In this document: positions 3,150-15,765 of the stretch, one piece after another
Position numbering within the stretch: the first letter of the stretch is position 1
How the letters are laid out: each line of letters opens with the position of its first letter
Origin: an uncultured virus (IMG/VR IMGVR_UViG_3300011912_000001)
Taxonomy: Duplodnaviria; Heunggongvirae; Uroviricota; Caudoviricetes
Direction: 5' to 3' (one strand)
Length of the DNA: 64,000 bases
IMG/VR virus record: IMGVR_UViG_3300011912_000001
Notes under the pieces: model-generated
Databases searched by the model: none
Seen by the model: only the letters and a program-made list of their open reading frames with translations
What the model was told of the DNA's origin: nothing
Made by a program: the position numbers and the translations under genes

Positions 3150-3713
3150 TTAAAGTGAAAGATTCGGTTTGTTGGTAGGATGAAAACTATTCGTGACAAA
3201 GTGTTCAAGTTCGTTAAAGAACTCATTGACCACTCTTGTTGTGTTTTCAGCAACTTTCGGGTCAATTTTTCGTTCGTAGATATGAAGGGTTTGAACCTCT
3301 TGTGTGATACGTTTTCTCAAAGAAGCGTAGCTCGTATCTTCAATGAGCTCAAAGTATTGAGCGTCCACATCATAATATTTCAACTTATTGAGAAAAGAAA
3401 AATCAGAGATAGAAATAACATCATTTCGAAATAGTTTTTCAAAGAAAGGCTCGACTTCATTATTAGCAACTCCGATTTCTTTATGATAAGAATCAAGGAA
3501 TTTGTAGTAAGAAAAAAGAGTATTGGTAGAACCATACAATGGTACGAGAATCAGCTTATCTCCTAGGAGACTGTCATCATGGACTTCTTCGTCAGTGAAG
3601 GAGTTGTAAACTTTGAGGACAAGACCTATAAAAGCATAGGCTTCTTTTGTATAAGCATAACGCGTATTGGTGCTAATGGTGGCGCGGACGATTTGTCCGG
3701 GTTTGAAGTTCAT
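3150..3713 (-). CDS. hypothetical, family A (FKPGQIVRA start, PNLSL end)
   Basis: ORF with RBS; start moved to MNFKPG. Confidence 0.75.
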   Translation of the reverse strand: MNFKPGQIVRATISTNTRYAYTKEAYAFIGLVLKVYNSFTDEEVHDDSLLGDKLILVPLYGSTNTLFSYYKFLDSYHKEIGVANNEVEPFFEKLFRNDVISISDFSFLNKLKYYDVDAQYFELIEDTSYASLRKRITQEVQTLHIYERKIDPKVAENTTRVVNEFFNELEHFVTNSFHPTNKPNLSL

Positions 3714-3729
3714 TGGAAGCACTCCTTTC

Positions 3730-3912
3730 TTAAGCAAGACGTTGTTGCTCAAAAGCTTCAGCGATAACCGTGTTGATAATCGGGTTGTCGTTTGGCGTCG
3801 TTGCCTCCAAGCAAATCAAGTCGATAACAGGTAACGTGCGTAAGACATCTTGCAATTGTCCAAGTTCGCGCATACCTCCTTGTTTTACAGCTGTAATCAG
3901 TTCGTGTACCAT
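3730..3912 (-). CDS. small hypothetical protein
   Basis: AGGAGG RBS before MVHEL. Confidence 0.6.
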   Translation of the reverse strand: MVHELITAVKQGGMRELGQLQDVLRTLPVIDLICLEATTPNDNPIINTVIAEAFEQQRLA

Positions 3913-3926
3913 CAGTAGACCTCCTT

Positions 3927-4550
3927 TCAAAGAGAGAGTTGGGGTGTCGATGAAATATCCATCGGTTTACTTAAGAAGAGCGGAAGAAGATGGTAAAACT
4001 TTTCAAGTTCGTCTCGTTGAACCATATTTCTTTCTCTAGGTCTTCCTATCATATCATAAGAAATTTCTTTCAACTTATCCGGCGTCGGATGGCCAAGGGG
4101 AACGAAATGAGATTGCTCGACGGCGAAACCATTCAAACCAAGAGAAAGAAAATAAGAAATATTCGAAGGAACAGTAGGATTGAATAACGTTTGTAAAGCG
4201 TTACGAAATTCAGAGATTCTAACCGTTTTTGAGTTTCCATAGAAATACAAGTCCATGGAAATCGGAATGTTTTCTTGCCTATTTAAATACGGGTGAAGTT
4301 GTTCCATAATAAAAAGAAGGGAAAGGTCTGCCGCATACAAAGGAATCATTTCAAAAGCTTTTGAAGCATATTCACGCTCTTCATCGCTCGCTTCTTCCTC
4401 TGAAACATAGTATTCGTCACCATCTTCATCTTCGTCGATATAACCAAGAGCGCAGACGATACCGATGAAGGCATTGTCAAAAGTCGTAATCGAATATTGA
4501 TGGACATCTTCTTTTGCGCGGAAAAAATCTCCTAGCTTAGGTTTATACAT
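3927..4550 (-). CDS. hypothetical, family A (KLGDFFRAK start, PQLSL end)
   Basis: AGGAGG RBS before MYKPK. Confidence 0.75.
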   Translation of the reverse strand: MYKPKLGDFFRAKEDVHQYSITTFDNAFIGIVCALGYIDEDEDGDEYYVSEEEASDEEREYASKAFEMIPLYAADLSLLFIMEQLHPYLNRQENIPISMDLYFYGNSKTVRISEFRNALQTLFNPTVPSNISYFLSLGLNGFAVEQSHFVPLGHPTPDKLKEISYDMIGRPRERNMVQRDELEKFYHLLPLFLSKPMDISSTPQLSL

Positions 4551-4563
4551 AAAAATCCTCCTT

Positions 4564-5106
4564 TCATAGAGAGAGCTTCGGGCGAAGTTCAGGAGAAACA
4601 TTAAGAGAGTGTACATGCTTCATCAGAATTAAAAATTGTTTTAAGTTAGATGCAAATTCTTGTGGTGGTAAAGAATTGATTTCATATTTAAATTTGTGTT
4701 CACGAAAAGAGTATTGTACCATGTCTTTCGCATCTTTTACGATTTGTTCGGGGCTTGACCCATTTGCGAGTTCAAAGTAGCGAGCTTCAACGACATACGC
4801 ATAATCTGTATCCATGAAAAATTGAGGAACTTTTTCTTCGGGGTAAGCTTCTGTCGGATTCGAGAACGCGTGACGAAGAAAATGGAATAAGGGTGCAGAT
4901 GTATCGTTCTTTGGATTTAAAAGCGTTTTATTGTAGCGGGTAGGATTACAAGAACCCTCAGAAAAGAATCCACAGACTTCAATTTCTCCTAAGGGTCTGA
5001 CCGAAACCACAACCCCATGAAAACCGCGAATGGGCGTTGTAATCGCATATTTGCCAATACTGTCTCGTTTGGCACGAACAAGGTCTCCGACTTTAAAAGA
5101 TGTCAT
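4564..5106 (-). CDS. hypothetical, family A (FKVGDLVRAK start, PKLSL end)
   Basis: ORF with RBS; N-terminus resembles neighbours. Confidence 0.75.
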   Translation of the reverse strand: MTSFKVGDLVRAKRDSIGKYAITTPIRGFHGVVVSVRPLGEIEVCGFFSEGSCNPTRYNKTLLNPKNDTSAPLFHFLRHAFSNPTEAYPEEKVPQFFMDTDYAYVVEARYFELANGSSPEQIVKDAKDMVQYSFREHKFKYEINSLPPQEFASNLKQFLILMKHVHSLNVSPELRPKLSL

Positions 5107-5121
5107 AAAAAAGCTCCTTTC

Positions 5122-5637
5122 TCATAAATTAAGGCGCGGGTGTTCCGTCGACTGAAAATCAATATGCCGAAGATAAAATGAACGGTTCTTTCCTCGTGAA
5201 GAACTTCCAAAGTGATTATGAAACAAGAACATGGCTCTGTCGTAGGCTTCAAGGATACTAGCCATGTCATTATCTTTAGCAATACGACCTTCATGTCCAA
5301 AACCGATGTAGCGGATGAGTTTGTTTTTGGAACGAGGAAGTGGCAGTTGTTGTCCTAGCATATAATAGGAAGCGGACTCAGACATGGTATCTTTCGTAAA
5401 AGGAGAAGTGTAAGAGAATACAACTTCAGGAGTATAGAAACGACCGATTCCAATCTGTACTCTCCTGTTTTGATAACGAAGAAGGACCACGGAAGGTTCT
5501 TCTCGAATTGAAAAGTGTACAAAGACTGGAAGTTCCATCCAAAATTCTTCCTGTGCTCGATTCGATTGTTGCACGAAAGTCGAAAAGATTTGTCGAACCT
5601 CAGATAGATGTTCGCTTAATGGGCGTTCGGTATGCAT
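5122..5637 (-). CDS. hypothetical, family B (ELP..GIGR..FSY; PRLNL end)
   Basis: ORF with RBS; motifs shared with 6660, 7219 and 7813. Confidence 0.75.
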   Translation of the reverse strand: MHTERPLSEHLSEVRQIFSTFVQQSNRAQEEFWMELPVFVHFSIREEPSVVLLRYQNRRVQIGIGRFYTPEVVFSYTSPFTKDTMSESASYYMLGQQLPLPRSKNKLIRYIGFGHEGRIAKDNDMASILEAYDRAMFLFHNHFGSSSRGKNRSFYLRHIDFQSTEHPRLNL

Positions 5638-5657
5638 AGGAGTCTCCTTTCAAAATA

Positions 5658-6605
5658 TTAGCCAGAATAATGAAAAGCTTTTGTCGCAACTTCTTTGATG
5701 TAAGGTAAATCGAGGGTGCCATTCTTTCCAATGCGTAGGGAATCATTGATGTAGTGCGCGATTGTAGGGAAGTAGAATGGATGGCAACAGAGTTGGGTCA
5801 AGTCAATGTTGTGTTCTTTCATGAAACCAAATAAAGCAGTCAAGCGGAGGGATTGGAACATTAAGACTTTTTCGTCTAAGTCATAGATGACAAAGGACGA
5901 ATGCAATTTTGCGATACCAAAACGCATGTGCGTGTAAACAGGAGGTAGGTTGGTCATGTTTAGATTGTGTGTACGTTTTAGGAATTCTTGTTTGGTAATC
6001 GTCTCTGTTTTCTTATTAAGTGGAATGTATTGAGGAACCGGCATCGTCACCGAAGAAGCTTTCGATTTCGGCATCCCGTGCTTCAAATTAGAAACGACAG
6101 CTTTTTCAACACGACTTCGGTGGAATTCTGTGGTAGCGCCAGACGGTTTTGCGACATTTGCATTAAGACGAGTTAAGTCTTCATCAAGAGATGTTGCCAA
6201 ATCATAGGCTTCGAAGGTCCGGTAATTGTAAGTGAACTTTTTGGAAGTAGGACAAATGTACTTTTGGAAGCTTTTTAGCATAGCATGCGCCCACTCTTGA
6301 TTCTGGTCACACCATGTCACAATGTTTTTTGTACGACGGCGTTGAATCAATAATTGGCGTTGACGGGAAGCAATCTTCGTTAACTCGACAGCCGTACAAT
6401 TTAAGAATTCCAATGTGTGCATATTATCTGTTGAAATCAAGTCATTGGTGACGACATACTGTAACGCTTGTTCTTTTAAGACGTCCATTTGTTGCAATTG
6501 TTCTTGTAACATTCTAAGTGTTTCCGCGATGTCTAATTGTAAGGCATCGACGGAATCCGAAAAGTTCATCACATCTTGGATGTGAGCATCATATGAGCTA
6601 ACCAA
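5658..6605 (-). CDS. hypothetical protein with N-terminal coiled coil
   Basis: 315-aa ORF; TTG start after GGAGG. Confidence 0.7.
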   Translation of the reverse strand: MVSSYDAHIQDVMNFSDSVDALQLDIAETLRMLQEQLQQMDVLKEQALQYVVTNDLISTDNMHTLEFLNCTAVELTKIASRQRQLLIQRRRTKNIVTWCDQNQEWAHAMLKSFQKYICPTSKKFTYNYRTFEAYDLATSLDEDLTRLNANVAKPSGATTEFHRSRVEKAVVSNLKHGMPKSKASSVTMPVPQYIPLNKKTETITKQEFLKRTHNLNMTNLPPVYTHMRFGIAKLHSSFVIYDLDEKVLMFQSLRLTALFGFMKEHNIDLTQLCCHPFYFPTIAHYINDSLRIGKNGTLDLPYIKEVATKAFHYSG

Positions 6606-6617
6606 AATACATAACCT

Positions 6618-6646
6618 CCTATAGGAAGAAGGGGCGTAGCCCCGGC
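6618..6646 (-). promoter_or_regulatory. hairpin element copy (GGGGC-GTA-GCCCC), divergent flanks
   Basis: same stem and loop as the 14.9-22 kb copies; sits just upstream of an RBS; could also act as a terminator. Confidence 0.45.
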
Positions 6647-6659
6647 TTTCTTTTTTATT

Positions 6660-7202
6660 TTAAAGCAAGGAACGTGGAGCAAAGGGAGATTGAAAAGAAA
6701 AAGTATCGAGATATGATTCACGGTCATCGAACTTGATGATAGTATTTGAAAACGTCCTGTTCAGAAATCGTTGGATATTTTGACAAAGTGAAGAAGGGAA
6801 ACTAGGAGAATCGATGGAAGCAAACACATCATTCGTAGAAAGAAAATGAGCCATTTTCAACCCCACGTGTTGGAAAGCTTCTTCCGATTGATTCGGAGTT
6901 AACGGGGTGATTTGATTAAAAGGGACATAGAAGAAAGGAGCTGGATAAGGGTGATAATGTAAAGAATGACTGTAAGAGAAAATTAAATCATCTTCTACTA
7001 AGCGTCCGACGCCAATTCGAACCTTGTATCGCCCTTCTTGGTTAGTGAAGACGACAGCAAGGTGATAGAATTTGGATTGCATTCCAACAAGAACAGGAAG
7101 CTCAAGATAATAAGGAATATTGGGGACGAAGTTCGTATGGGCAATAAAGTGAGCTATCTTTTTCTCGATGAATGACATTTTTTCAGGAGGATAGATATGC
7201 AC
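6660..7202 (-). CDS. hypothetical, family B (PRSLL end)
   Basis: LELPVL, GVGRL, FSYS. Confidence 0.75.
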   Translation of the reverse strand: MHIYPPEKMSFIEKKIAHFIAHTNFVPNIPYYLELPVLVGMQSKFYHLAVVFTNQEGRYKVRIGVGRLVEDDLIFSYSHSLHYHPYPAPFFYVPFNQITPLTPNQSEEAFQHVGLKMAHFLSTNDVFASIDSPSFPSSLCQNIQRFLNRTFSNTIIKFDDRESYLDTFSFQSPFAPRSLL

Positions 7203-7218
7203 AAGAAAAACTCCTTTC

Positions 7219-7800
7219 TTAAAGAGAAGTCGGTGGCATCGCTGATGGGAAGTGATTTTTCCGCATGAACAGATTAAGATAATTCTTACTTAGATATAAG
7301 TTATCAAAATGGGAACAAAAAGACTGAAACTGTTCTTTCAAAAAAAGTTTAGCTTCATCTTTTTCTAAATAAAGAGAAAGAGAGGTTTTTATATGAGCGC
7401 CTCCAAAGCCAGCCATTTCAATAGGGTTAGAGAAAGCATTAAAAGGCAATACCTCGTCCTTTAGTGAAATAAAAGAAGCTTCATGATGTAAGCTCGTATA
7501 ACTAAAGATGTTCTCTACTTTAAATTGTTCGTGTTCAAACGAAACTGCTGTTCGACCTAATACAAAAGCTAAGGAAAAATAAGTCGTGTCAGGTTTAATA
7601 TATGCAGTATACCGAAAAGAAATGAAACATAAAGGTTGAGTATAGCCTGTCTGAATCAAAGCCGGTAATTCCATTAGAAAAGAAGTATTGGAACGAGCAT
7701 GGTGTTTTAAACGTTCAAAGAAAACATCAAAAAAAGCATCTATGAAAACATCGGAGGACTCTACAGGTTTGATTCCATAAGGCATGTCCATAATAATCAA
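7219..7800 (-). CDS. hypothetical, family B (PPTSL end)
   Basis: MELPAL, VLGR, FSYTS. Confidence 0.72.
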   Translation of the reverse strand: MIIMDMPYGIKPVESSDVFIDAFFDVFFERLKHHARSNTSFLMELPALIQTGYTQPLCFISFRYTAYIKPDTTYFSLAFVLGRTAVSFEHEQFKVENIFSYTSLHHEASFISLKDEVLPFNAFSNPIEMAGFGGAHIKTSLSLYLEKDEAKLFLKEQFQSFCSHFDNLYLSKNYLNLFMRKNHFPSAMPPTSL

Positions 7801-7812
7801 CAGGCTCCTTTC

Positions 7813-8307
7813 TTATAAAAAGAGTTTGGGGGCGGAGATAGGGGCGAATACAGAGAAGAAAGCAGGATAAAATTCAGGGAAAAATTGAAACTGATAGGCG
7901 GCATAGAAATCATGCATGGAGAAAAAAGTTTCTGCATATCCTTGTCGAGTTTTTAAGTTGTCTCTAGAATGCAAAGGGGCGTATTTTAATTCGAAGTCGG
8001 TATCTGCTGGTCGAAGAAATATGCCATTAACATGACGATAAAGAGAAGTGTTCCCTAAAGAAACATGACTGTATGAAGAATAAGAAAATTCCTGACGATT
8101 TGCAAACAAACGTCCGACACCTAACATGAGATATTTTTTACCACCAGTAAAACTAGCAGTCACGACGTGGTCACGAAAGGAAATCGGAAGCTCGACACAA
8201 AGTACAGAATCCTTCTCTAATTGAGGAAAATAGTTTTGATGGATATTGAAAAGATGATGAAAAATGCGTTGAACGTCTTGGATTTCTTCTTGTGTTAACG
8301 AGGGCAT
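7813..8307 (-). CDS. hypothetical, family B (PKLFL end)
   Basis: VELPIS, GVGRL, FSYSS. Confidence 0.75.
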   Translation of the reverse strand: MPSLTQEEIQDVQRIFHHLFNIHQNYFPQLEKDSVLCVELPISFRDHVVTASFTGGKKYLMLGVGRLFANRQEFSYSSYSHVSLGNTSLYRHVNGIFLRPADTDFELKYAPLHSRDNLKTRQGYAETFFSMHDFYAAYQFQFFPEFYPAFFSVFAPISAPKLFL

Positions 8308-8497
8308 AATTTTCTCCTTTCCGTGTGCAATTTAAACAAATAGTACGTATTAAATAAAGTAAGACCTCCTAAAAGCAGGAAATGGAAGAACAAATAGAAC
8401 AAGAGAAGCCGGAAACCGCATGGTTAAGCCATTTACCATTAAATGGAAAGAAAAGCGTAACGGTAGTAGGTAAGTGCGATTTCCAGACGAATTGCCG

Positions 8498-9046
8498 TCA
8501 TAATTTTGGTAGATTGGAGATGCGCACAGGACGGACAAGGCTTTGGTTTCTGAAGACAGGATGGCAATCTTTGAAGTAATGGTAGTCTTCAGGTAAGAGA
8601 TAATATACGAGTTCAGGTACGTAGTACGTGCGGTCTCGTTGAGCGACTCTGGTTGGAGTATGAACACCTAAAGAGCGGGACACATAACGGGTTTCTGGAA
8701 CCGGCATTGAAAGTTTGGATTCGATGATATCGTCGTCATTGTCATTGTCACTACGACGGAATGAAAATTGATGGTAGCCCATCTCAAAGAAATTGACCAT
8801 CAAAGAATAATTTTTTGTCGTGTTGTACTTTGAAATTTTTTTAACATCGAGGACAAAAACAAAAGGAGGATTGTCAACAGAATGATTGAGCTTGTTTGCC
8901 TCATAGGTATCGTAGCAATGTTCGTGTCGATAGCGTTCACGATAGAAAGCTCCGCGTTCAGAAATAAAACGTTCGTAAGCGGTAAGAAACAATGAGTTCT
9001 CGTTGTTGAAGAAAAGGAACTTCCTTAGTTCATTTAAAGTAGGCAT
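8498..9046 (-). CDS. hypothetical protein (LPKL end)
   Basis: likely start MPTL after GAAGGAAG. Confidence 0.6.
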   Translation of the reverse strand: MPTLNELRKFLFFNNENSLFLTAYERFISERGAFYRERYRHEHCYDTYEANKLNHSVDNPPFVFVLDVKKISKYNTTKNYSLMVNFFEMGYHQFSFRRSDNDNDDDIIESKLSMPVPETRYVSRSLGVHTPTRVAQRDRTYYVPELVYYLLPEDYHYFKDCHPVFRNQSLVRPVRISNLPKL

Positions 9047-9107
9047 GTACATCTTCCTTCCATGATTATAATGTTTCGATGATATCTTCCATGAGCAAAT
9101 TCCTTTC

Positions 9108-9599
9108 TTAAAGTCGAGCGGTCGGCGTCGTCGCCGATTTAAAGCTAGAAAGTAAAGCATAATCATAGCAGAAAGAAATTTTATGAAGGGGTTTTGCCCA
9201 CGGACTTCGTTCCGCATTGAGTTGATTTAAACGAGACACAGCCTTTTCCATGGTCAGAACCTTTTCAACATGTGCTGTTCGAATGACATAACGCCTACCG
9301 ATACCTCCGGGGACAAGACTCCAAATTTGACGTCCAAGAGCGGCGGTCGGATGATGCATGAATTGTACTAAAAGCGATTGAAATGACCCATCTTTGTCTT
9401 CGAAATAACCAAGAAGGGATTCATGGGAGTGAAGGGTTAAAACCATTACTTTTTGGTCAAGCACTTTTTCTCCTTGGCACTCAATGTAATCCATCCTGAA
9501 GTCAAGGATGACGGCAAAATAGTAATTAGAAACAGTAGTAGCGTACCCAGATTCAGGGTTAATGCCGTAGACGATATCACCGATAGCAAAAGACATCAT
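9108..9599 (-). CDS. hypothetical, family A (FAIGDIVYG start, PTARL end)
   Basis: ORF with RBS. Confidence 0.7.
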   Translation of the reverse strand: MMSFAIGDIVYGINPESGYATTVSNYYFAVILDFRMDYIECQGEKVLDQKVMVLTLHSHESLLGYFEDKDGSFQSLLVQFMHHPTAALGRQIWSLVPGGIGRRYVIRTAHVEKVLTMEKAVSRLNQLNAERSPWAKPLHKISFCYDYALLSSFKSATTPTARL

Positions 9600-9611
9600 G
9601 CATCTCCTTTC

Positions 9612-10112
9612 TTACAAGTTCAATCGGATACGAGACGGTTTGAAATGGCGCATGAAGGTGAATTCCAATTGTTGAAGCAAAGGCAACACATGTTCATTGA
9701 AAAGTTCAAGCTCGCCTTTTTGTTCGGCATGTGCTTGCAAAAGAGAAGTGACACGGCGAAAATCGTTTAGACTTACAATTTGATTATCAAAAGATATGAT
9801 TCCTGTGGTAAAAGCATAGAGGCTGTAAACATGGCTTGCGTCATGAGGTGAAAGGGAGGTGTAACATTCAGAAAAAATACTGTAACGACCTTTTGTACCG
9901 CTCATCCATTCCTTATAATCTTGAATGAATGCATCTTTTGTTTCTTGACTATGAAGATGGAGAGGAGTCGCAATACTATCATACTTTCCAAAAGGGTGTC
10001 TGGAATCATAGAGAACAATGCATTCCATCGTCTTCTTAAACAATTGAATAGGAACGAAAATGTAATGATTGTCATGATGAGTAGTATGGAGAATCATACC
10101 GGGTTCTATCAT
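9612..10112 (-). CDS. hypothetical, family A-like (IEPGMIL start, IRLNL end)
   Basis: ORF with RBS. Confidence 0.7.
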   Translation of the reverse strand: MIEPGMILHTTHHDNHYIFVPIQLFKKTMECIVLYDSRHPFGKYDSIATPLHLHSQETKDAFIQDYKEWMSGTKGRYSIFSECYTSLSPHDASHVYSLYAFTTGIISFDNQIVSLNDFRRVTSLLQAHAEQKGELELFNEHVLPLLQQLEFTFMRHFKPSRIRLNL

Positions 10113-10124
10113 AAAAATCCCTCC

Positions 10125-10418
10125 TTAGAATAAAGCCCAGTCGATATAGATGACTTCTGGTAAGTCTTCATACCATCTGTATTGGTAATCCTTTTCGTTC
10201 AATTTTTTGAATAGATACGGAAGAATTTTTTTGTTCTCGAAACCTTCCGGGGAAATCCGATAGCTGAGTTTGGTATCGCCTTCTTTTGCGGCTCCGATGA
10301 TTTCTTGAAGCATGCGACGAAGCTCGATGGTTTTGAGTTCTTTCGTTGAAAGCGGAACATCCGGGAAACGTCGATATTCTGTCCATTCTTCGACTTGACG
10401 AGCGTTTGGTAAATGCAT
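10125..10418 (-). CDS. hypothetical, family C (terminal Trp motif)
   Basis: AAKEG ... DYQY ... IYIDW. Confidence 0.7.
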   Translation of the reverse strand: MHLPNARQVEEWTEYRRFPDVPLSTKELKTIELRRMLQEIIGAAKEGDTKLSYRISPEGFENKKILPYLFKKLNEKDYQYRWYEDLPEVIYIDWALF

Positions 10419-10432
10419 AATAAAAAACCTCC

Positions 10433-10984
10433 TTATAGGGATAATCGGGGTGGACTGGTGATGCCAAATGTTTTCGGAAACAACGGAATGATTTCTTTTA
10501 GAATCTCAATCTCATGGCTTTTAAAACGTGTGTCTTTTGTCATCTCTTCCAGTAATGCTAAGTATTCAGGAAGAGAATTAACTCTGATGGCGACCTCTTC
10601 GAAACCAAAATCGGGTTGACGAAGATAGAAATGATGGTAAGAGATTTCAAAAGCTTCTGGACCACCTTCGGGAAATTCCGGGTTTGGAGACGTGTAGTCT
10701 TCAGCATTAAGAGAAGTTATTTCTTCGCCTATAAAGGTTTTTGGTAATGGTTTTTGAACATCTTCGATGATATAGGCGCGTGTCTGCTTATTTTGGTCAA
10801 CGAATGGAAGCTCATCCCATTGCATGAAGCTATAGCTAGAATTCCAAAGAAGGAAACAAACAAACTCAGAGTCTTGTTTTTGTTCAAGAATGGAAACATC
10901 CTCGACTACAAGCAATAGTACGACGATACTCCCGTTTTCTTGAATGTAATAGATGTCGCCGGGGCGAACGGGCGTTAGGGCCAT
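10433..10984 (-). CDS. hypothetical, family A-like (VRPGDIYY start, PRLSL end)
   Basis: ORF with RBS. Confidence 0.7.
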   Translation of the reverse strand: MALTPVRPGDIYYIQENGSIVVLLLVVEDVSILEQKQDSEFVCFLLWNSSYSFMQWDELPFVDQNKQTRAYIIEDVQKPLPKTFIGEEITSLNAEDYTSPNPEFPEGGPEAFEISYHHFYLRQPDFGFEEVAIRVNSLPEYLALLEEMTKDTRFKSHEIEILKEIIPLFPKTFGITSPPRLSL

Positions 10985-10986
10985 GA

Positions 10987-11412
10987 CTATTCCTCCATTC
11001 GTTTTTTCTCAGCGTCAGTCGCATCCCGTGTGTTCTCAGGACGAGTGTTTTCAGCATCATCGTCTGCCCGGTACCGAACACCAACTTTGAGTTGTTTATA
11101 GGTTTTCTTGTCGACATAGAAGTCTTCTGTTTCTTTTCCGTTCTTGATGACGACACGGAAGGATTCAGGGTGATGGACATACGTCGGCGTCATAACCGTC
11201 GTCGTCGTTTTCCCTGTACTGATGACCATTGGCATCATGATGACATCACTGTCTTCAGGAAAATGTTCAAGTTTCGTGACGACACCTTCTGTAATGGTAG
11301 GTGGTTTGAATTCTAAATAAAAAGCATAGCCTAAACCGACAATACAAAGAACGATGATACCAATTAAAAAGATTAAAAAGGGAAGAAGTATTTTGTCTAA
11401 GAAGAAGTCCAT
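10987..11412 (-). CDS. membrane protein with one N-terminal TM helix
   Basis: LLPFLIFLIGIIVLCIVGLGYAF helix; RBS AAGGAG. Confidence 0.75.
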   Translation of the reverse strand: MDFFLDKILLPFLIFLIGIIVLCIVGLGYAFYLEFKPPTITEGVVTKLEHFPEDSDVIMMPMVISTGKTTTTVMTPTYVHHPESFRVVIKNGKETEDFYVDKKTYKQLKVGVRYRADDDAENTRPENTRDATDAEKKRMEE

Positions 11413-11425
11413 AATAATTGCTCCT

Positions 11426-11728
11426 TTACCATGCAATGTATAGGGTGCTTGAGAAAAACCCGCGCTCAATCAAAGTATCATATCCTTGTTTGCGTAAATC
11501 TTCTCGAATCATAGCAACAGCTTGACGCTCGACCGATTGTTTATTCTTTGAGACGGAAATGCAACAGGCGGCCTTACCACGTCTGGCTTCCTTTTCAATC
11601 TCAGAGTAAATCTGTTCTTTGAGCTTGTCGATGTGTTTCTGTAAAAGGATTTGCCGCATCAGCGACCGGTCTTGTGAAGATTGACCGGTCATCAAATAGC
11701 GGGCTTCCTTTGCATCTAAGAATTTCAT
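11426..11728 (-). CDS. hypothetical, family C
   Basis: LDAKEAR, EARRG, QGYD, LYIAW. Confidence 0.72.
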   Translation of the reverse strand: MKFLDAKEARYLMTGQSSQDRSLMRQILLQKHIDKLKEQIYSEIEKEARRGKAACCISVSKNKQSVERQAVAMIREDLRKQGYDTLIERGFFSSTLYIAW

Positions 11729-11738
11729 AGCAACCTCC

Positions 11739-12164
11739 TTAATAAAATAATCCGTAACCGGGACCACTGATGTGACGTTGTTGACTATCAAAACCATAGA
11801 AGATGAGCATCGGGCGCTTATCTTCGACAAGTTTTAAAGTCAGCGATGTGTCTGCTTGCTGAAGTAAGAACGCCCACATGCGTGCTATCCCTTCAGAAGA
11901 CGGACAATCATCTTCAAAGTCTTCAAAATCAAAACCCAGTTGCTTTAACTTATCCATGACATCTTCTTTGACAATAGCATCTTCATATTCAGAACAGACT
12001 TCACTGATATCAATACCAGTAGCATTTCGGATTTTGAAATGGGCTTCGCGTACTTCCTCAACAGGTTTGTTCGATTTGAAAATGAAATAGTCACATTTTC
12101 CGTGACCGTCGTCGGACCAGTCCCCAATCGGCATAGTAAATTCATGAGTTAATGTGTTTTCCAT
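11739..12164 (-). CDS. conserved phage hypothetical protein (GDWSxDGH ... GYGLF type)
   Basis: strong RBS; motif pair typical of a widespread phage family. Confidence 0.7.
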   Translation of the reverse strand: MENTLTHEFTMPIGDWSDDGHGKCDYFIFKSNKPVEEVREAHFKIRNATGIDISEVCSEYEDAIVKEDVMDKLKQLGFDFEDFEDDCPSSEGIARMWAFLLQQADTSLTLKLVEDKRPMLIFYGFDSQQRHISGPGYGLFY

Positions 12165-12180
12165 AAATAATTCCTCCTTT

Positions 12181-12492
12181 TTAGTCTACACGATGGTGAG
12201 ACCATGAGATGGTGATGCCTTGTTCTAACGGGTCTTTGTCCATAAAATAAAGGGAAGCTTTATCAATTTCATAACCAAGACCACCTAAGCGTGAAATGAT
12301 GAGATGATAGATACGTGGCGTATTATTGACAGCAGGAGAGAATTGGTGGTCTACATCATAATAACCAAGCGATGCGGCACGGTTAATGGAATCGATGACG
12401 CGGGCAAACTCTAATTCTAAAATGACGTTCCAATCCGATGGTCGCTTCTCAGCACTTTGACGTGCCATATTTTGTGCATTTGCAAGTTTCAT
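12181..12492 (-). CDS. hypothetical, family C
   Basis: AASLG, LGYE, ITISW. Confidence 0.72.
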   Translation of the reverse strand: MKLANAQNMARQSAEKRPSDWNVILELEFARVIDSINRAASLGYYDVDHQFSPAVNNTPRIYHLIISRLGGLGYEIDKASLYFMDKDPLEQGITISWSHHRVD

Positions 12493-12504
12493 AAATATTC
12501 TCCT

Positions 12505-12804
12505 TTACCATGTGATAGTGAAAGAACCTAAGATGAACTGTTTATCATCAGGAGGTGTATAGGTCACTTCGTACCCATTGCGTTCTAAATCCTCTTGAAT
12601 GATAGAAAGCACATCAGAAGCCTCCGATATCATGCGTTGTGTTAAAGAATGGTCTTTACGGATGGCGGCGCATGCGACTTCCTTGTAAATCCCTTCAAGA
12701 TTCACGTAAGCAATACGAGTGGCTTCTTTTTGTCTTTCATCAGGGTCTTCCGCGACAATACGACGTGCTTGAGTTGCCGTCAACGGACGGTAGGTGTAAG
12801 ACAT
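12505..12804 (-). CDS. hypothetical, family C
   Basis: LTATQAR, NGYEV, FTITW. Confidence 0.72.
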   Translation of the reverse strand: MSYTYRPLTATQARRIVAEDPDERQKEATRIAYVNLEGIYKEVACAAIRKDHSLTQRMISEASDVLSIIQEDLERNGYEVTYTPPDDKQFILGSFTITW

Positions 12805-12819
12805 GAATAAAATCCTCCT

Positions 12820-13185
12820 TTACCATTGAATTTGAAGAATATCATAAGACTGAAGTGTGACATGAGAGAAGATGTCATCAGTTTTCACAGTGTAACCAAG
12901 TAAAGGCAACTCATACTTCAACTGCATGAGAATCAATGAGATGTCGGCGGCGTCATCTTCTTCAAAGAAAGATGTCACATTCACGGCATGAACACTTTCT
13001 CCTTTTAATGCCTTATTACGAGCTCCAGTTAAGAGTTCTTGTCTCACAGCATCACATCGTTTGTTGTGAAGAACACTTTGCTCAATACTGAATCCTTCTT
13101 TTGCTTTGTCTAACTTATTCAACTCCGCTTTCAATGTGAGTTCTTTCAATTTGTCTGCTGTGAATATTTTAGCTTGTGTTTCCAT
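12820..13185 (-). CDS. hypothetical, family C
   Basis: FTADKL, ALKGE, LGYTV, LQIQW. Confidence 0.72.
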   Translation of the reverse strand: METQAKIFTADKLKELTLKAELNKLDKAKEGFSIEQSVLHNKRCDAVRQELLTGARNKALKGESVHAVNVTSFFEEDDAADISLILMQLKYELPLLGYTVKTDDIFSHVTLQSYDILQIQW

Positions 13186-13201
13186 AATAAAATCCCTCCT
13201 T

Positions 13202-13546
13202 TTAATAGATGTCGATGCCGCCAGTCGTTGTTCGTAAGTTCACAGTAATCGTACCGTACCCATATAACCGCTCAGGCATCATTTTTTGAAGCGTGACGCG
13301 AAATCCTTTCTTTTGAATGGCATGAGGAAGTAAAGAATGTAACCCTTCATCTTTCTCATCAAGCGTTAAGATGTTGAAGCCGAATTCACGAATCTCTTTA
13401 GAATGATACTGACTACAAATCATATTTCGTACCTCGCGGAAAGAACGCTCCCATACATCTTCAATATCCCGAATGGAATCATCTTTCTCTTCGAAAGGAA
13501 CCTCTTCACAGTGTGGAATCAAAGCGAATAGTTCTTCGATAGTCAT
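13202..13546 (-). CDS. hypothetical protein
   Basis: AAGGAGG RBS before MTIEE. Confidence 0.65.
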   Translation of the reverse strand: MTIEELFALIPHCEEVPFEEKDDSIRDIEDVWERSFREVRNMICSQYHSKEIREFGFNILTLDEKDEGLHSLLPHAIQKKGFRVTLQKMMPERLYGYGTITVNLRTTTGGIDIY

Positions 13547-13595
13547 AGTAAATTCCTCCTTAAAATAGTAGTCGCCGCCGAAACCCTCTAAAACC

Positions 13596-13824
13596 AAGAA
13601 CTCTATTAGTAATAATAGTAAGAGTTATTAAGATTAAGAGAGATAATGAATAAGAATTAAATAGAGTAGTAGATAATCAAGTAAAGATTAGAAAGAGTAG
13701 AATACCTGTAAAAACACCTACATTTGATGAAATATGGCTTAGAAACACCTTAATCCTAATAAATATGGTCTAGAAACACTCACATCTGATGAAAAAATAC
13801 CTACATTCCTATAAATATGGTATC
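13596..13824. repeat. AT-rich purine-skewed tract followed by phased direct repeats (AAACACC...AAATATGG), origin- or operator-like
   Basis: repeat units start at 13712, 13743, 13774 and 13795. Confidence 0.7.
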
Positions 13825-13972
13825 ACGCCCCCAAATAATTGGTGGTCAGAGTAGCGTTTCGAAGGATAAGTGGTCAGTCGTTATTCACTGGTATTGTATA
13901 CTTATGCAGAAAGTGTTCAAAATTCCCGGGGTAGTTGCATACCCTTTCTCGTTTATGCAAGATTGTTGCATA

Positions 13973-14167
13973 TTAGGGGGAATCAAAGAAGCGTCGAATA
14001 GCGTTGTGGTGTTTTTGTTTCATGTGTCGGATGCTTTTAGAGAGGTCGACGACGGTGTGCGGGTTCTTGAGGTGACGGGATTTGAGTTTGCGTTTGAGGT
14101 CAGTGTCTTTGTCGGTGACAATGAATCCGCCATGTTTGGTTTTAGAGATGGTATACTTCTTCTTCAT
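13973..14167 (-). CDS. small basic protein
   Basis: AAGGAG RBS; K/R/H-rich, 64 aa. Confidence 0.65.
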   Translation of the reverse strand: MKKKYTISKTKHGGFIVTDKDTDLKRKLKSRHLKNPHTVVDLSKSIRHMKQKHHNAIRRFFDSP

Positions 14168-14181
14168 GGGTTTCTCCTTTC

Positions 14182-14655
14182 TTAGAGAGATAAGTTCGGT
14201 GGTTGTGTGGACTTGAATTCCATGTGAATGGATTTGAAGAAGCGGATGACGGAAGCGTGCTGATATTCTTGCATGGGTAAGAAGTCTTGTAACGCTTCTT
14301 CTAGGTCTTCAAGGGAACGGATGGGCGTGCACCGTTTCATGTCGAGGCGGGCACAGGTAGGAGTTGTTTTTTGTGTTCCGTGTTCGATGCGGGCGAACCG
14401 TTTCTTATCAAAGTGTTCTTCAGAACCAGAGGCATGCATCTGTTTGATGTAGGCAATGAGTTGTTCTTGTTCTTCGATAGTCCCTCTTGTGATACAGAAG
14501 TTTAAGTCAAAGATGTCTTCTGAGTCTCCGGCGAGCACGAGGGTACGGACTTCTTTCTTTGAAGGAATCATCGATTTCTTTTGGATGGTGACGGCGATGT
14601 AACGGGGTTGTCCTAATGGATTCCGGTATAGATAAAAGTCTCCGACTGTGAACAT
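14182..14655 (-). CDS. hypothetical, family A (FTVGDFY start, PNLSL end)
   Basis: start at MFTVGD after AAGGAAG. Confidence 0.72.
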   Translation of the reverse strand: MFTVGDFYLYRNPLGQPRYIAVTIQKKSMIPSKKEVRTLVLAGDSEDIFDLNFCITRGTIEEQEQLIAYIKQMHASGSEEHFDKKRFARIEHGTQKTTPTCARLDMKRCTPIRSLEDLEEALQDFLPMQEYQHASVIRFFKSIHMEFKSTQPPNLSL

Positions 14656-14686
14656 AGTACATCTTCCTTTCTTACGGCTAGAGTTT

Positions 14687-14770
14687 AAAAAAATCCCTAG
14701 AGAAAAGCCATCACGGATGTGTTTCTCCTTTTTTAGAAAAAGTCCCACAGGGAAGCCATCGCGGATGTGT
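14687..14770. repeat. imperfect tandem duplication (48-bp period), each copy ending in a GGATGTGT box
   Basis: aagccatcacggatgtgt at 14705 and aagccatcgcggatgtgt at 14753. Confidence 0.7.
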
Positions 14771-14784
14771 CTAGGTATGTATCA

Positions 14785-14894
14785 TAAAAAGATGGAAACA
14801 GAGCAGACGCTGTCGCGGAATAAGGAGAAGGGGAAGGCTCCTTACGCCGTGACAACGCCCGCTCCGTTGAGGACGCTGAGATAACGAATCAATC
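14785..14894 (-). ncRNA. putative long-hairpin sRNA with C-rich apical loop
   Basis: ~70-nt stem 14798-14867 with G-U pairs on the minus strand; loop CCUUCCCCUU; 3' U tract; lies directly after a hairpin element. Confidence 0.55.
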
Positions 14895-14920
14895 AAAAGA
14901 AGAGGGGCGTAGCCCCCCGC
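14891..14920 (-). promoter_or_regulatory. hairpin promoter-like element
   Basis: AATCA-N9-GGGC-GTA-GCCC-CCCGC. Confidence 0.65.
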
Positions 14921-14928
14921 CTTTGACC

Positions 14929-15612: not shown

Positions 15613-15642
15613 AATCAAGAAAAGAAGGGCGTAGCCCCCCGC
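15613..15642 (-). promoter_or_regulatory. hairpin promoter-like element
   Basis: AATCA-N9-GGGC-GTA-GCCC-CCCGC. Confidence 0.65.
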
Positions 15643-15735: not shown

Positions 15736-15765
15736 AATCATTAAAAGAAGGACGTAGTCCCCCGC
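15736..15765 (-). promoter_or_regulatory. hairpin promoter-like element (compensatory stem GGAC/GTCC)
   Basis: AATCA-N9-GGAC-GTA-GTCC-CCCGC. Confidence 0.65.

What the first reader, a model, noticed from the sequence alone, without database searches (positions are those of the whole stretch)
3150..14655. Twelve early proteins share a C-terminal P-x-L-x-L tag
SEEN: the C-termini are KPNLSL (3150), TPQLSL (3927), RPKLSL (4564), HPRLNL (5122), APRSLL (6660), MPPTSL (7219), APKLFL (7813), NLPKL (8498), TPTARL (9108), RIRLNL (9612), PPRLSL (10433) and PPNLSL (14182). The proteins are all about 155-210 aa and belong to at least two unrelated families. Interleaved genes (family C, membrane proteins) lack the tag, and the codons differ, so selection acts on the peptide. 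KNOWN: the beta-clamp motif is QL[S/D]LF, and free hydrophobic C-termini are read by Clp and tail-specific proteases. INFERENCE: this is a common docking address, for example adaptors that bring diverse host targets to one protease or hub, a signal for capsid loading and injection, a degron, or a clamp-binding motif. That would be a modular effector system.
Basis: partly seen in the sequence, partly recalled or inferred. Interest (0 to 1): 0.85.

Follow-up and report, generated by a model that had tools for sequence, protein, structure and literature searches.

The report
Shared C-terminal tag on phage proteins
In an uncultured giant Bacillus-type phage, a dozen fast-evolving proteins from several apparently unrelated families all end in the same short peptide, which looks like a common address label whose reader is still unknown.

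Summary
All 12 minus-strand genes end in Leu. Ten end in P-x-x-x-L and seven in strict P-x-L-x-L. Genes 8498 and 9612 are degenerate. About 0.23 such ends are expected by chance among my 76 called genes.

Selection acts on the peptide. Third codon positions carry 0.04-0.35 bits, against 1.1-1.8 for the first and second positions of Pro and the last Leu. The tag shows no link to the downstream ribosome site or to RNA folding.

The full tag is about 11 residues: F(-10), S/P(-8), P(-4), R/K/N(-3), L(-2), S(-1), L-COOH. Low-confidence models leave it unstructured. It sits on at least five groups that BLAST and HHalign cannot link.

A sister phage (capsid 93% identical) has ten tagged genes in the same place. 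Protein bodies there are only 25-37% identical, yet the tails persist. Relatives with about 70% capsid identity lack the tag, and some carry other C-terminal tags.

No partner was found. My best guess (0.35) is recognition by an AAA+ protease, as degron or adaptor handle. Capsid loading is the main rival (0.2). This scan noted comparable shared tails in other giant phages.

The parts
3150..3713 (-). Tagged gene, 187 aa, ends ...SFHPTNKPNLSL. Group A1 (N-terminal small 'FKxGDxV' domain).
   Evidence: The diverged orthologue P0009 (44% body identity) keeps KPNLSL.
3927..4550 (-). Tagged gene, 207 aa, ends ...DISSTPQLSL. Group A1.
   Evidence: Orthologue P0008 keeps TPQLSL.
4564..5106 (-). Tagged gene, 180 aa, ends ...SPELRPKLSL. 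Group A1.
5122..5637 (-). Tagged gene, 171 aa, ends ...FQSTEHPRLNL. Group B (ELP...GxGR...FSY core).
   Evidence: Orthologue P0003 ends YPRLNL. In the AF2 model the tail has pLDDT about 25 and is coil.
6660..7202 (-). Tagged gene, 180 aa, ends ...FQSPFAPRSLL. Group B. It is followed by a terminator hairpin, not by a ribosome site.
7219..7791 (-). Tagged gene, 190 aa, ends ...FPSAMPPTSL. Group B.
   Evidence: Orthologue P0004 ends MPPTSL.
7813..8307 (-). Tagged gene, 164 aa, ends ...FAPISAPKLFL. Group B.
   Evidence: Orthologue P0005 (55% body identity) ends LPKLSL.
8498..9046 (-). Gene with a degenerate tag, 182 aa, ends ...RISNLPKL. Group D (YYLLPEDYHYF core).
   Evidence: Its sister-phage relatives end SPKINL (canonical) and TPSLLEE (masked by two extra residues).
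9108..9599 (-). Tagged gene, 163 aa, ends ...FKSATTPTARL. Group A1.
   Evidence: Orthologue P0007 ends TPTSRL.
9612..10112 (-). Gene with a degenerate tag (Ile in place of Pro at -4), 166 aa, ends ...HFKPSRIRLNL. Singleton group.
10433..10984 (-). Tagged gene, 183 aa, ends ...FGITSPPRLSL. Group A3.
   Evidence: Relatives of 32-35% identity end SPRLTL, SPRLSL and SPRLFL. In the AF2 model two helices (pLDDT 79-89) precede a coil tail of pLDDT 25-30.
14182..14655 (-). Tagged gene, first of the array, 157 aa, ends ...FKSTQPPNLSL. Group A2.
   Evidence: The sister-phage orthologue (36% body identity) ends KPNLSL. Logan relatives P0024, P0025 and P0027 end QPPNLSL.
5658..6605 (-). Untagged 315-aa gene inside the array, 41% identical in the sister phage. 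Candidate partner only.
   Evidence: No family in Pfam above cut-off, PHROGs or NCBIfam.
10987..11412 (-). Untagged membrane protein inside the array, 70% identical in the sister phage (the best-kept array member).
   Evidence: phrog_4392, function unknown.
11426..13185 (-). Interleaved untagged genes: three ~100-aa 'family C' proteins ending in I-x-W (11426-11728, 12505-12804, 12820-13185), plus 11739-12164 and 12181-12492.
   Evidence: I-x-W ends occur in 10 of 78 sister-phage genes.
6631..6643 (-). Terminator hairpin GGGGCTACGCCCC inside the array. It is one copy of a repeated hairpin cassette.
14656..14928 (-). Leader upstream of the array. It holds the repeated terminator hairpin (14902-14918) and then two ~48-nt tandem repeats, each starting with ACACATCC.

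Best explanation
The last ~11 residues, F(-10)-x-[S/P]-x-x-x-P(-4)-[R/K/N]-L-[S/N]-L-COOH, form a portable, unstructured C-terminal recognition tag. It is joined to several different fast-evolving accessory (probably early) protein domains and is read by one common partner.

Shown:
- The tag is real and far beyond chance.
- It is selected as a peptide.
- It always sits at the very last residue.
- It outlasts the divergence of the proteins that carry it.
- It is confined to one small phage clade.

Inferred: the partner recognises a free hydrophobic C-terminus. I think it is most likely an AAA+ unfoldase-protease system (host ClpXP/ClpCP type, possibly with a phage component). Under this reading the tag either makes these effectors short-lived (a degron) or lets them hand bound host targets to the protease (an adaptor handle).

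Odds: about 0.7 that it is a docking or recognition tag for a common partner of some kind. About 0.35 that the partner is a protease system; that is the confidence given below.
For: 1. Enrichment. P...L-COOH occurs in 10 of 76 window genes and 11 of 78 sister-phage ORFs (10 in the array; the eleventh is a 56-aa opposite-strand ORF, probably spurious). About 0.25 are expected in each.

2. Peptide-level selection. Third codon positions carry 0.04-0.35 bits, against 1.1-1.8 for the first and second positions of Pro and the last Leu. Both CTN and TTR Leu codons are used.

3. Anchored conservation over 22 tails:
- L(0): 22 of 22.
- P(-4): 20 of 22.
- F(-10): 12 of 22.
- L(-2): 13 of 22.
- S(-1): 10 of 22.
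- R/K/N(-3): 15 of 22.
- Beyond -11 there is only a weak hydrophobic periodicity.

4. Exact terminal placement. None of the 22 has residues after the Leu. The one relative with an added EE (TPSLLEE) also has a decayed motif. This points to a reader of the free end, as AAA+ unfoldases and PDZ-type domains are (own knowledge).

5. Tail versus body. In 14 alignable pairs below 60% body identity, the last five residues are 66% identical (46 of 70) and the bodies 33% (764 of 2286).

6. Portability.
- Seven groups were compared. No HHalign pair exceeds 23% probability, and with the last 12 residues removed none exceeds 11%.
- The N-terminal domain of group A1 occurs widely elsewhere as solo 86-88-aa proteins and as repeats, without the tail.

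7. Flexibility. In both AF2 models the tails have pLDDT 25-30 and no secondary structure.

8. Context fits accessory or early genes rather than the structural module.
- Structural genes are 77-93% identical between the two phages. Tagged genes are at most 37% identical or unmatched.
- The array shares a repeated terminator hairpin with the small-gene region at 15-22 kb and not with the structural module.

9. Relatives G001 and G002 end 19 of 195 and 16 of 204 called proteins in [VA]-A-COOH, with varying codons. This recalls the Ala-Ala end of ssrA-type ClpX degrons (own knowledge).

10. A ClpP gene is annotated in the related Bacillus phage vB_BceM_WH1 and was found in 1 of 5 related complete genomes.
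Against: - No partner was identified, and no protease gene lies in the 64-kb window.
- 173 kb of this phage's 237-kb contig could not be examined.
- ClpX-type degrons need only the last two or three residues (own knowledge). The strongly kept Pro at -4 and Phe at -10 fit a groove-binding receptor better.
- The tag does not resemble ssrA (it ends in Leu, never Ala).
- Related lineages carry quite different tails. This is easier to explain by a co-evolving phage-encoded receptor, or by different hosts, than by one conserved host protease.
- ClpP is absent from 4 of the 5 related complete genomes searched, G001 and G002 among them.
- Expression timing is not known.
- The AF2 models are of low confidence (mean pLDDT 48.9 and 57.6), so 'disordered tail' is only weakly shown.
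Confidence: 0.35

Rival explanations
1. Capsid-loading (and co-injection) signal. The tail docks the proteins to the inside of the procapsid or its scaffold, so that a varied set of anti-defence or takeover proteins is packaged and ejected with the DNA. It would be a C-terminal counterpart of the T4 capsid targeting sequence, working like encapsulin targeting peptides.
For: - The architecture matches known cases. [quoted passage not shown]
- Family 1 encapsulins, which have HK97-fold shells, load cargo through short C-terminal targeting peptides (PMC8346489, passages read).
- The carriers are hypervariable, of several families, and arrayed.
- The tag tracks the capsid lineage. The phage with 93% capsid identity has the same tag; relatives at about 70% have none or other tags.
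Against: - The array lies outside the structural module, on the opposite strand.
- It shares its repeated terminator cassette with the small-gene region, not with structural genes.
- Nothing in the window's head genes carries the tag.
- Strict placement at the last residue (22 of 22) is not a requirement of encapsulin peptides, whose consensus SDGSLGIGSLKRS has trailing residues.
- There is no sequence likeness to that consensus.
- There are no virion proteomics.
Confidence: 0.2
2. Docking tag for another common partner that is neither a protease nor the capsid. This could be a phage-encoded hub (for example one of the conserved untagged array genes 5658-6605, 10987-11412 or 11739-12164) or a host hub other than the clamp.
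For: - The tags are lineage-specific, which suggests a co-evolving and therefore possibly phage-encoded receptor.
- Conserved untagged genes sit inside the array in both phages.
Against: No candidate has any feature of a peptide-binding domain. Neighbourhood alone is weak evidence.
Confidence: 0.18
3. Beta-clamp binding motif. The tails dock in the hydrophobic cleft of the host (or a phage) sliding clamp, like the C-terminal hexameric QLxLxL motif of Pol IV.
For: - L-x-L-COOH is shared with the hexameric motif QLxLxL (PMC4564189, passage read).
- 13 of 22 tails have Leu at -2 and 22 of 22 have Leu at 0.
- One tail reads QLSL.
Against: - Gln at the equivalent position occurs in 1 of 22 tails.
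- The Leu next to it is replaced by Pro in 20 of 22.
- The terminal Phe of QLxLF never occurs.
- Twelve different clamp binders in one phage have no obvious rationale.
Confidence: 0.05
4. Not a portable tag. All carriers descend from one tandemly duplicated gene that has diverged beyond recognition. The tail is the last conserved piece because it has an intramolecular or oligomerisation role.
For: - The carriers have similar sizes (145-207 aa), lie in one tandem array and diverge fast.
- A weak hydrophobic periodicity upstream of the tail at -13, -15, -18 and -22, together with helices before the tail in both models, could mark a shared C-terminal module.
- The alignments are shallow, which limits HHalign.
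Against: - HHalign finds no link once the tail is removed; the best probability is 11%.
- Group A1 has an N-terminal domain with many tail-less relatives elsewhere. No similarity to it was detected in group B.
- The two models differ in secondary-structure order.
- The tails are modelled as free coil.
Confidence: 0.1
5. By-product of a nucleotide-level element. The last codons would be an anti-Shine-Dalgarno or coupling structure for the next gene, whose ribosome site (GAAAGGAG) often starts right after the stop.
For: In the window, 9 of 12 tagged genes are followed within 0-3 nt by a strong ribosome site.
Against: - Untagged neighbours have the same arrangement. A ribosome-site core lies next to the stop in 15 of 22 tagged and 28 of 33 untagged genes (Fisher P = 0.19).
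- The junction folding energy is the same, -5.98 against -5.96 kcal/mol.
- Information sits at first and second codon positions only.
Confidence: 0.02

Closest known systems
Capsid targeting sequence (CTS) of T-even phage internal proteins (PMC3012670, passages read)
   Same: A short conserved terminal peptide is the only thing shared by a diverse, fast-evolving set of small phage proteins encoded in a variable locus.
   Different: The CTS is N-terminal and directs proteins into the scaffolding core; that it is removed after packaging is recalled. The tag here is C-terminal, has no sequence likeness, occurs in an unrelated Bacillus-type giant phage, and has not been shown to relate to the virion.
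Family 1 encapsulin targeting peptides / cargo-loading peptides (PMC8346489, passages read)
   Same: A peptide of about 10-13 residues at the C-terminal end of unrelated cargo proteins, with spaced hydrophobic anchors. It binds an HK97-fold shell, and this phage's capsid protein matches Pfam phage-capsid families (PF25209 Phage_capsid_4, PF05065), which I take (recalled) to be HK97-fold.
   Different: The consensus SDGSLGIGSLKRS is unlike F-x5-P-[RK]-L-S-L. Encapsulin peptides do not need to end exactly at the last residue. No shell binding was tested here.
C-terminal degrons of AAA+ proteases (ssrA ...LAA for ClpXP; B. subtilis Spx ...LAN and SpoIIAB ...LCN).
   Same: An uncharged or hydrophobic extreme C-terminus on a flexible extension. 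Exact terminal placement.
   Different: Those degrons are defined by the last 2-3 residues. The tag here has conserved anchors at -4 and -10 and always ends in Leu, never Ala or Asn.
Clamp-binding motifs QLxLF / QLxLxL (PMC4564189, passage read)
   Same: A short hydrophobic Leu-x-Leu peptide, often at a protein's end.
   Different: Gln is present in 1 of 22 tails. Pro replaces the first Leu. There is no terminal Phe.
Poxvirus ankyrin/PRANC (F-box-like) multigene families. Recalled.
   Same: Variable target-binding domains joined to a constant C-terminal module that plugs into a host degradation machine. This is the model for the 'adaptor' reading.
   Different: PRANC is a folded domain of tens of residues in eukaryotic viruses. 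Here the tag is an 11-residue linear peptide in a phage, and its partner is unknown.

Membership tests
Beta-clamp binding motif (QL[SD]LF / QLxLxL) | Gln at motif position 1 | tested here: not met
   Gln at the equivalent position (-3 for the pentamer alignment) occurs in 1 of 22 tails.
Beta-clamp binding motif (QL[SD]LF / QLxLxL) | Leu at position 2 and a terminal Phe (pentamer) or a third Leu (hexamer) | tested here: not met
   In the hexamer alignment Pro replaces Leu-2 in 20 of 22 tails. No tail ends in Phe. L-x-L-COOH is present in 13 of 22.
Beta-clamp binding motif (QL[SD]LF / QLxLxL) | Binding in the hydrophobic cleft of the clamp | tested here: inconclusive
   A co-folding job gave no verdict either way.
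ssrA-like ClpX degron (C-motif 1, ...LAA-COOH) | The last two residues are small and non-polar (Ala-Ala or similar) | tested here: not met
   The tails end [S/N/F/L/T/Y/R/K]-L. None ends in Ala. By contrast, relatives G001 and G002 have 19 of 195 and 16 of 204 proteins ending in [VA]-A.
ssrA-like ClpX degron (C-motif 1, ...LAA-COOH) | ClpXP-dependent degradation | not testable with these tools
   Needs half-life assays in clp mutants.
T4-type capsid targeting sequence | N-terminal position, with cleavage by the prohead protease | tested here: not met
   The tag is at the C-terminus. The N-termini of the carriers share no motif; the best N-terminal pair has P = 1.5e-5 with n = 5.
T4-type capsid targeting sequence | Carriers are found in the virion | not testable with these tools
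   No cultured member and no proteomics.
Encapsulin family 1 targeting peptide | Short C-terminal peptide on a flexible linker, on unrelated cargo proteins | tested here: met
   This concerns how it may work, not membership.
Encapsulin family 1 targeting peptide | Consensus SDGSLGIGSLKRS-like sequence, next to an encapsulin shell gene | tested here: not met
   The consensus as quoted in PMC8346489 does not match the tag. The shell here is a phage capsid protein inside a full head module.
PDZ class II ligand (hydrophobic-x-hydrophobic-COOH). Recalled definition. | Hydrophobic residues at 0 and -2 with a free carboxylate | tested here: met
   L(0) in 22 of 22. Leu at -2 in 13 of 22 (14 of 22 counting Ile). 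No PDZ protein was found in the window. This is a resemblance in mode only.
Imm26-like immunity proteins (lead for group A3 bodies) | Match to Pfam PF15428 | tested here: not met
   The language-model feature search placed gene 10433-10984 nearest to clusters of which 14-46% of members carry Imm26 (score 0.94). However, hmmscan found no Pfam family for it, and PF15428 for none of the 12 tagged or related proteins scanned, even at E <= 5.

The most novel reading that the evidence does not exclude
The tagged proteins form a modular 'degrader' kit. Each fast-evolving body binds a different host defence or housekeeping protein, and the constant 11-residue tail plugs the complex into one protease or other hub. 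The phage would thereby redirect a host machine against many host targets. This would be a bacterial-virus counterpart of the E3-ligase hijacking of eukaryotic viruses. Related phage lineages would have evolved their own tag-reader pairs (LPDYE, LLDKEW, [VA]A).
Probability: 0.12. Interest if true: 0.9.

Novelty: new variant of a known kind. Interest (0 to 1): 0.64.

Why it matters
Short shared terminal peptides are how viruses address many different proteins to one machine. The T4 capsid targeting sequence is the classic phage example.

Here a new, very short, strictly C-terminal tag marks at least five apparently unrelated, rapidly evolving protein families in a clade of uncultured Bacillus-type giant phages. 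Sister lineages appear to use other C-terminal tags. This scan has also noted comparable shared tails in Staphylococcus and T4-like giant phages (unchecked notes).

If such tags are general, they give a handle on the 'dark' early genes of giant phages:
- One pull-down with an 11-residue peptide could name the common partner and so the pathway that a dozen unknown proteins feed into.
- A portable tag of this size would also be a useful tool, either as a degron or as a cargo-loading peptide for Bacillus systems.

Tried and rejected
1. Nucleotide-level explanation (anti-Shine-Dalgarno or coupling hairpin). Rejected. Ribosome-site adjacency is 15 of 22 tagged against 28 of 33 untagged genes (P = 0.19), junction folding energies are equal, and only first and second codon positions carry information.

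2. Co-folding of B. subtilis DnaN with the last 40 residues (alignment of 21 tails). No verdict: score 0.01 against a mark of 0.32, and controls were not run. This is evidence neither for nor against.

3. Family assignment of the 12 proteins and their neighbours. Pfam, PHROGs and NCBIfam gave nothing for any tagged protein.

4. Structure.
- AF2 on group B (8 sequences) gave mean pLDDT 48.9, and on group A3 (4 sequences) 57.6.
- Foldseek against the PDB with the A3 model found no match at E <= 0.001. The weak top rows are small beta-barrels (PWWP/Tudor) and are not usable.

5. Searches for more carriers.
- Profile of group B against 5.8 billion proteins: 5 hits, all from this clade.
- Group A1 profile against 1.84 billion representatives: only 4 full-length hits, all from this clade.
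- Group A3 profile: 4 hits, all from this clade.
- 40-residue tail profile against longer proteins: 10 hits, all from this clade. This is weak evidence, because only the 8000 candidates sharing most words were scored.
- Alignments too diverse for the search for related loci.
- Single-protein scans of viral contigs found only the window itself or the sister contig.
- A metagenome scan found none.
- Nine loci anchored on the nicotinamide phosphoribosyltransferase (NAMPT) gene from other phages: 0 tags.
- No nucleotide match of the array region, nor protein match of the 1037-aa ORF 25330-28443, in the GenBank phage collection.

6. Phage ClpP as reader. It is annotated in Bacillus phage WH1 but found in only 1 of 5 related complete genomes. 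The rest of this phage's genome is not available, so the question stays open.

7. Timing.
- Sigma-70-type promoter matches are not above shuffles: 39 against 36.5.
- No shared intergenic motif with the structural module.

8. Charge. The pI of tagged proteins spans 4.5-9.7 with no trend.

9. tRNA/tmRNA scan of the window: none.

10. Literature. Searches for a shared C-terminal motif on phage early proteins found nothing on this.

Full report
**What the window is**

The window is part of a 237,343-bp contig. It comes from an uncultured giant tailed phage.
- The plus strand from about 31 kb onward holds a head-tail module. It includes portal, head maturation protease, major capsid protein, an Ig-like decoration protein and a long tape-measure-like gene.
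- The capsid protein is 69-71% identical to that of Bacillus phages vB_BceM_WH1, Edson and vB_BauM_KLEB27-3, and 41% identical to that of 0305phi8-36.
- Ribosome sites are long, of the Firmicute type GAAAGGAG(G).
- The minus strand from about 30 kb down to 0 holds accessory genes. It ends in nicotinamide phosphoribosyltransferase (NAMPT) and a ribose-phosphate pyrophosphokinase-like gene.
- No whole genome is held for the window, so 173 kb of this phage could not be examined.

**Check of the observation**

- Twelve of 12 end in Leu.
- Ten of 12 fit P-x-x-x-L-COOH and seven of 12 fit strict P-x-L-x-L.
- NLPKL (8498) and RIRLNL (9612) lack the Pro at -4.
- With ribosome-site-supported starts the proteins are 157-207 aa.

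My simple gene caller needs a ribosome site of 5 nt or more and misses some genes.
- Among its 76 window genes, P...L-COOH occurs 10 times against 0.23 expected (binomial P = 5e-14).
- All ten lie among the 23 genes of the array and none among the other 53.
- In the array every protein of 157-207 aa carries the tail or a degenerate form of it.
- The 315-aa protein and all proteins of 141 aa or less do not.

**Peptide or DNA?**

I analysed 22 tails: 12 from the window and 10 from the sister phage described below.
- Information content follows codon periodicity. It is 1.1-1.8 bits at the first and second positions of the Pro and last-Leu codons and 0.04-0.35 bits at third positions.
- The last Leu uses CTT, CTA, CTC, TTA and TTG.

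I first suspected an anti-Shine-Dalgarno or coupling element, because a ribosome site often starts right after the stop codon. Three results reject this.
- Untagged neighbours have the same junction. A ribosome-site core lies next to the stop in 15 of 22 tagged and 28 of 33 untagged genes (P = 0.19).
- Junction folding energies are equal, -5.98 against -5.96 kcal/mol.
- Seven tagged genes have no adjacent ribosome site at all.

Selection is therefore on the peptide.

**Anatomy of the tag**

Anchored at the C-terminus without gaps, the 22 tails give:
- L(0): 22 of 22
- P(-4): 20 of 22
- F(-10): 12 of 22, plus 3 Leu
- S or P at -8: 13 of 22
- L(-2): 13 of 22
- S(-1): 10 of 22
- R, K or N at -3: 15 of 22

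Upstream of -11 there is only a weak hydrophobic periodicity. The tag is thus about 11 residues: F-x-[S/P]-x-x-x-P-[R/K/N]-L-[S/N]-L-COOH.

Nothing ever follows the last Leu. The one relative with two extra residues (TPSLLEE) also has a decayed motif.

AF2 models are of low confidence (mean pLDDT 48.9 for group B and 57.6 for group A3). Both show the tail as coil with pLDDT 25-30. In A3 it follows two better-modelled helices with pLDDT 79-89.

**How many kinds of protein carry it?**

BLASTP and HHalign separate the carriers of the two phages into seven groups:
- A1: 3150, 3927, 4564, 9108 and three sister-phage genes
- A2: 14182 and two others
- A3: 10433 and two others
- B: 5122, 6660, 7219, 7813 and one other
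- D: 8498 and two others
- two singletons

Evidence that the groups are distinct:
- No pair of groups exceeds 23% HHalign probability.
- With the last 12 residues removed, none exceeds 11%.
- With the tail kept, three of the short best matches are simply the tails aligned to each other.
- The N-terminal ~70 residues of A1 (FKxGDxV...Y.ITT...YFEL) have many relatives elsewhere, as solo 86-88-aa proteins and as tandem repeats. None of those has the tail.
- No similarity to that domain was detected in group B.

The alignments are shallow, so very remote common ancestry cannot be excluded. I keep that as a rival at 0.1.

**Relatives**

The capsid protein finds 33 related loci in IMG/VR.

The closest large one is G007 (53.7 kb, capsid 93% identical). 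It is syntenic with the window.
- Structural genes are 77-93% identical.
- Between its SSB-like gene and NAMPT it has ten tagged genes: APTLYL, IPSNSL, KPNLSL, APISLL, TPKQFL, SPRLTL, SPRLSL, APKSSL, SPKINL and SPRLFL. They are interleaved with ~100-aa genes ending in I-x-W.
- The tagged genes are among the fastest-evolving. Their best matches between the two phages are 29-37% identical, and seven window carriers have no match at all.
- In 14 alignable pairs below 60% body identity, the last five residues are 66% identical and the bodies 33%.

Orthologues from other assemblies keep the tail. Examples:
- P0009 has 44% body identity and the same KPNLSL.
- P0005 has 55% body identity, with APKLFL becoming LPKLSL.
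- P0022 ends SPRLFL.

**The tag is clade-restricted**

Counts of called proteins ending in P...L:

| Genome | Tagged / called |
|---|---|
| G001 | 0 of 195 |
| G002 | 0 of 204 |
| G004 | 1 of 232 |
| G003 | 1 of 294 |
| G005 | 1 of 245 |
| G008 | 1 of 88 |
| G010 (140 kb of it) | 0 of 121 |

Capsid identity to the window is about 68-72% for all of these except G005 (58%).

Further negative results:
- Nine loci anchored on NAMPT from other phages have none.
- The first 50 kb of Bacillus phage WH1 has none.
- Profile searches of billions of proteins returned only this clade.
- The whole accessory block 3.1-30.2 kb has almost no detectable homologues in G001, G002 or G004.

**An unexpected generalisation (partly followed)**

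The same unbiased scan of C-terminal residue pairs found other enriched ends in the relatives.
- In G003, ten proteins of 47-225 aa end in N-E-x5-L-P-D-Y-E or close variants (L-x-D-x-E). They fall into six BLAST-unlinked groups, and one looks like a P-loop protein.
- In G004, six ~72-105-aa proteins end in L-[LS]-[DS]-K-E-W. G010 shows the same signature, with seven proteins ending in E-W.
- In G001 and G002, 19 of 195 and 16 of 204 proteins end in [VA]-A. These include a Pol III alpha-like protein, a RuvC-like protein and, in G002, NAMPT. Codons vary, and orthologues keep the two residues while the preceding residues change.

Lineage-specific C-terminal tags thus seem to recur in this phage group.

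**Mechanism**

Shown:
- a portable, peptide-selected tag placed strictly at the terminus; low-confidence models leave it unstructured
- on fast-evolving accessory proteins
- in an array that shares its repeated terminator hairpin (GCGGGGGGCTACGCCC, 7-8 copies) with the small-gene region at 15-22 kb, not with the structural module

Inferred: one common reader of a free hydrophobic C-terminus.

I commit to an AAA+ protease system (degron or adaptor handle) at 0.35. The reasons are:
- the exact end placement
- the flexible S/T/P-rich linker
- the ssrA-like [VA]-A ends in sister lineages
- a ClpP gene in some relatives

Against this reading:
- the strong anchors at -4 and -10
- the variety of tags between lineages
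- the absence of any identified partner

Capsid loading is the main rival (0.2). It has the best precedents: the T4 capsid targeting sequence (PMC3012670) and encapsulin targeting peptides (PMC8346489). Genomic context speaks mildly against it, and nothing tests it.

The other rivals are:
- another hub, possibly phage-encoded (0.18)
- one diverged family with a structural tail (0.1)
- the clamp (0.05; Gln is present in 1 of 22 tails and Phe never ends a tail)
- a DNA-level element (0.02, refuted)

**Known or new?**

- No Pfam, PHROG or NCBIfam family covers any carrier.
- Two full-text searches found no description of such a tag.
- The principle of a short shared terminal peptide on diverse phage proteins is known from T4. 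This tag is new in position, sequence, host group and probably reader, so I class it as a new variant of a known kind.
- Unchecked notes of this scan report comparable shared C-terminal tails (14-22 residues, mostly helical) on early proteins of Staphylococcus and T4-like giant phages. None has a known partner. This suggests a wider pattern but is not independent evidence.

**Limits**

- The gene calls are my own simple ones.
- The counts are confounded by paralogy.
- The models are of low confidence.
- Expression timing, the host and 173 kb of the genome are unknown.
- The supplementary files of the cited papers were not consulted.

Noticed in passing
Relatives G001 (L040-L051) and G002 (L052-L064): 19 of 195 and 16 of 204 called proteins end in [Val/Ala]-Ala-COOH, against about 1.5 expected. 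They include a Pol III alpha-like protein, a RuvC-like protein and, in G002, NAMPT. Codons vary, and orthologues keep the two residues while the preceding residues change. This is an ssrA-like end on about 8-10% of a phage proteome.
   Followed up: partly
Relative G003 (L091-L103), e.g. 187-2408, 51220-51897 and 224232-244236 in the record: Ten proteins of 47-225 aa end in a different ~12-residue tail, N-E-x5-L-P-D-Y-E. They fall into six BLAST-unlinked groups, and one looks like a P-loop protein. This appears to be a second portable C-terminal tag in a sister lineage.
   Followed up: partly
Relatives G004 (L065-L078; 113988-150079 in the record) and G010 (L124-L130): In G004, six small proteins (72-105 aa, several with an SH3-like 'KxGxxV' start) end in N-x-E-A-x-x-L-L-[DS]-K-E-W. 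G010 shows the same signature, with seven proteins ending in E-W.
   Followed up: partly
window 11426-11728, 12505-12804, 12820-13185 (minus strand); L036/L037 in the sister phage: A family of ~100-aa proteins is interleaved with the tagged genes and always ends in I-x-W at the last residue (10 of 78 sister-phage genes, P = 4.5e-22). The stop codon overlaps the next gene's ribosome site.
   Followed up: partly
window 6631-6643, 14902-14918, 15624-15640, 15747-15763, 16839-16855, 18233-18250, 20632-20649, 21695-21712 (minus strand): A near-identical terminator hairpin (GCGGGGGGCTACGCCC plus a T-run, often followed by ...TTGAT) recurs 7-8 times. It brackets single small genes in the accessory region. 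The structural module uses different, non-repeated hairpins.
   Followed up: partly
window 14700-14775 (minus strand); also 19257-19281 and 20941-20967: The octamer ACACATCC occurs 8 times, always on the minus strand (2.3 expected). It comes in pairs just before start codons. Upstream of the first tagged gene it heads two ~48-nt tandem repeats, each of which could encode a mini-ORF (8 and 4 codons). This may be a leader or translational control element.
   Followed up: no
window 13547-13972: A 426-nt AT-rich gap inside the array holds repeated GTAGGTRTTTTT / CCATATTT motifs and a long T/C-rich stretch. Its function is unknown (regulatory region or origin?).
   Followed up: no
window 35857-37596 (plus strand): A 579-aa ORF in the head module carries an intein splicing domain with a LAGLIDADG endonuclease (Pfam E = 1.9e-20 and 2.7e-9). 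The ORF is 91% identical in the sister phage.
   Followed up: no
window 10433-10984 (minus strand): The language-model feature search places this tagged protein nearest to clusters partly annotated as Imm26 immunity proteins (score 0.94, 212 of 256 features). Pfam hmmscan finds no family for it even at E <= 5. A lead only.
   Followed up: partly
Group A1 genes, window 3150-5106 and 9108-9599; proteins P0011-P0018: The N-terminal ~70-residue domain of group A1 is widespread in other, mostly uncharacterised proteins. It occurs as solo 86-88-aa proteins, as tandem repeats, or fused to other domains, always without the tail. No Pfam family covers it.
   Followed up: partly
L090 (Bacillus phage vB_BceM_WH1, 17770-18348); G005 74340-74879: A ClpP-type protease gene lies among replication and recombination genes, apart from the head protease. 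It is annotated in WH1 and found in 1 of 5 related complete genomes.
   Followed up: partly
window 1515-3117 (minus strand): NAMPT reads as two ORFs that meet at a masked run of N (2351-2486). In the sister phage it is one 512-aa gene. Whether it is really split here cannot be judged.
   Followed up: no
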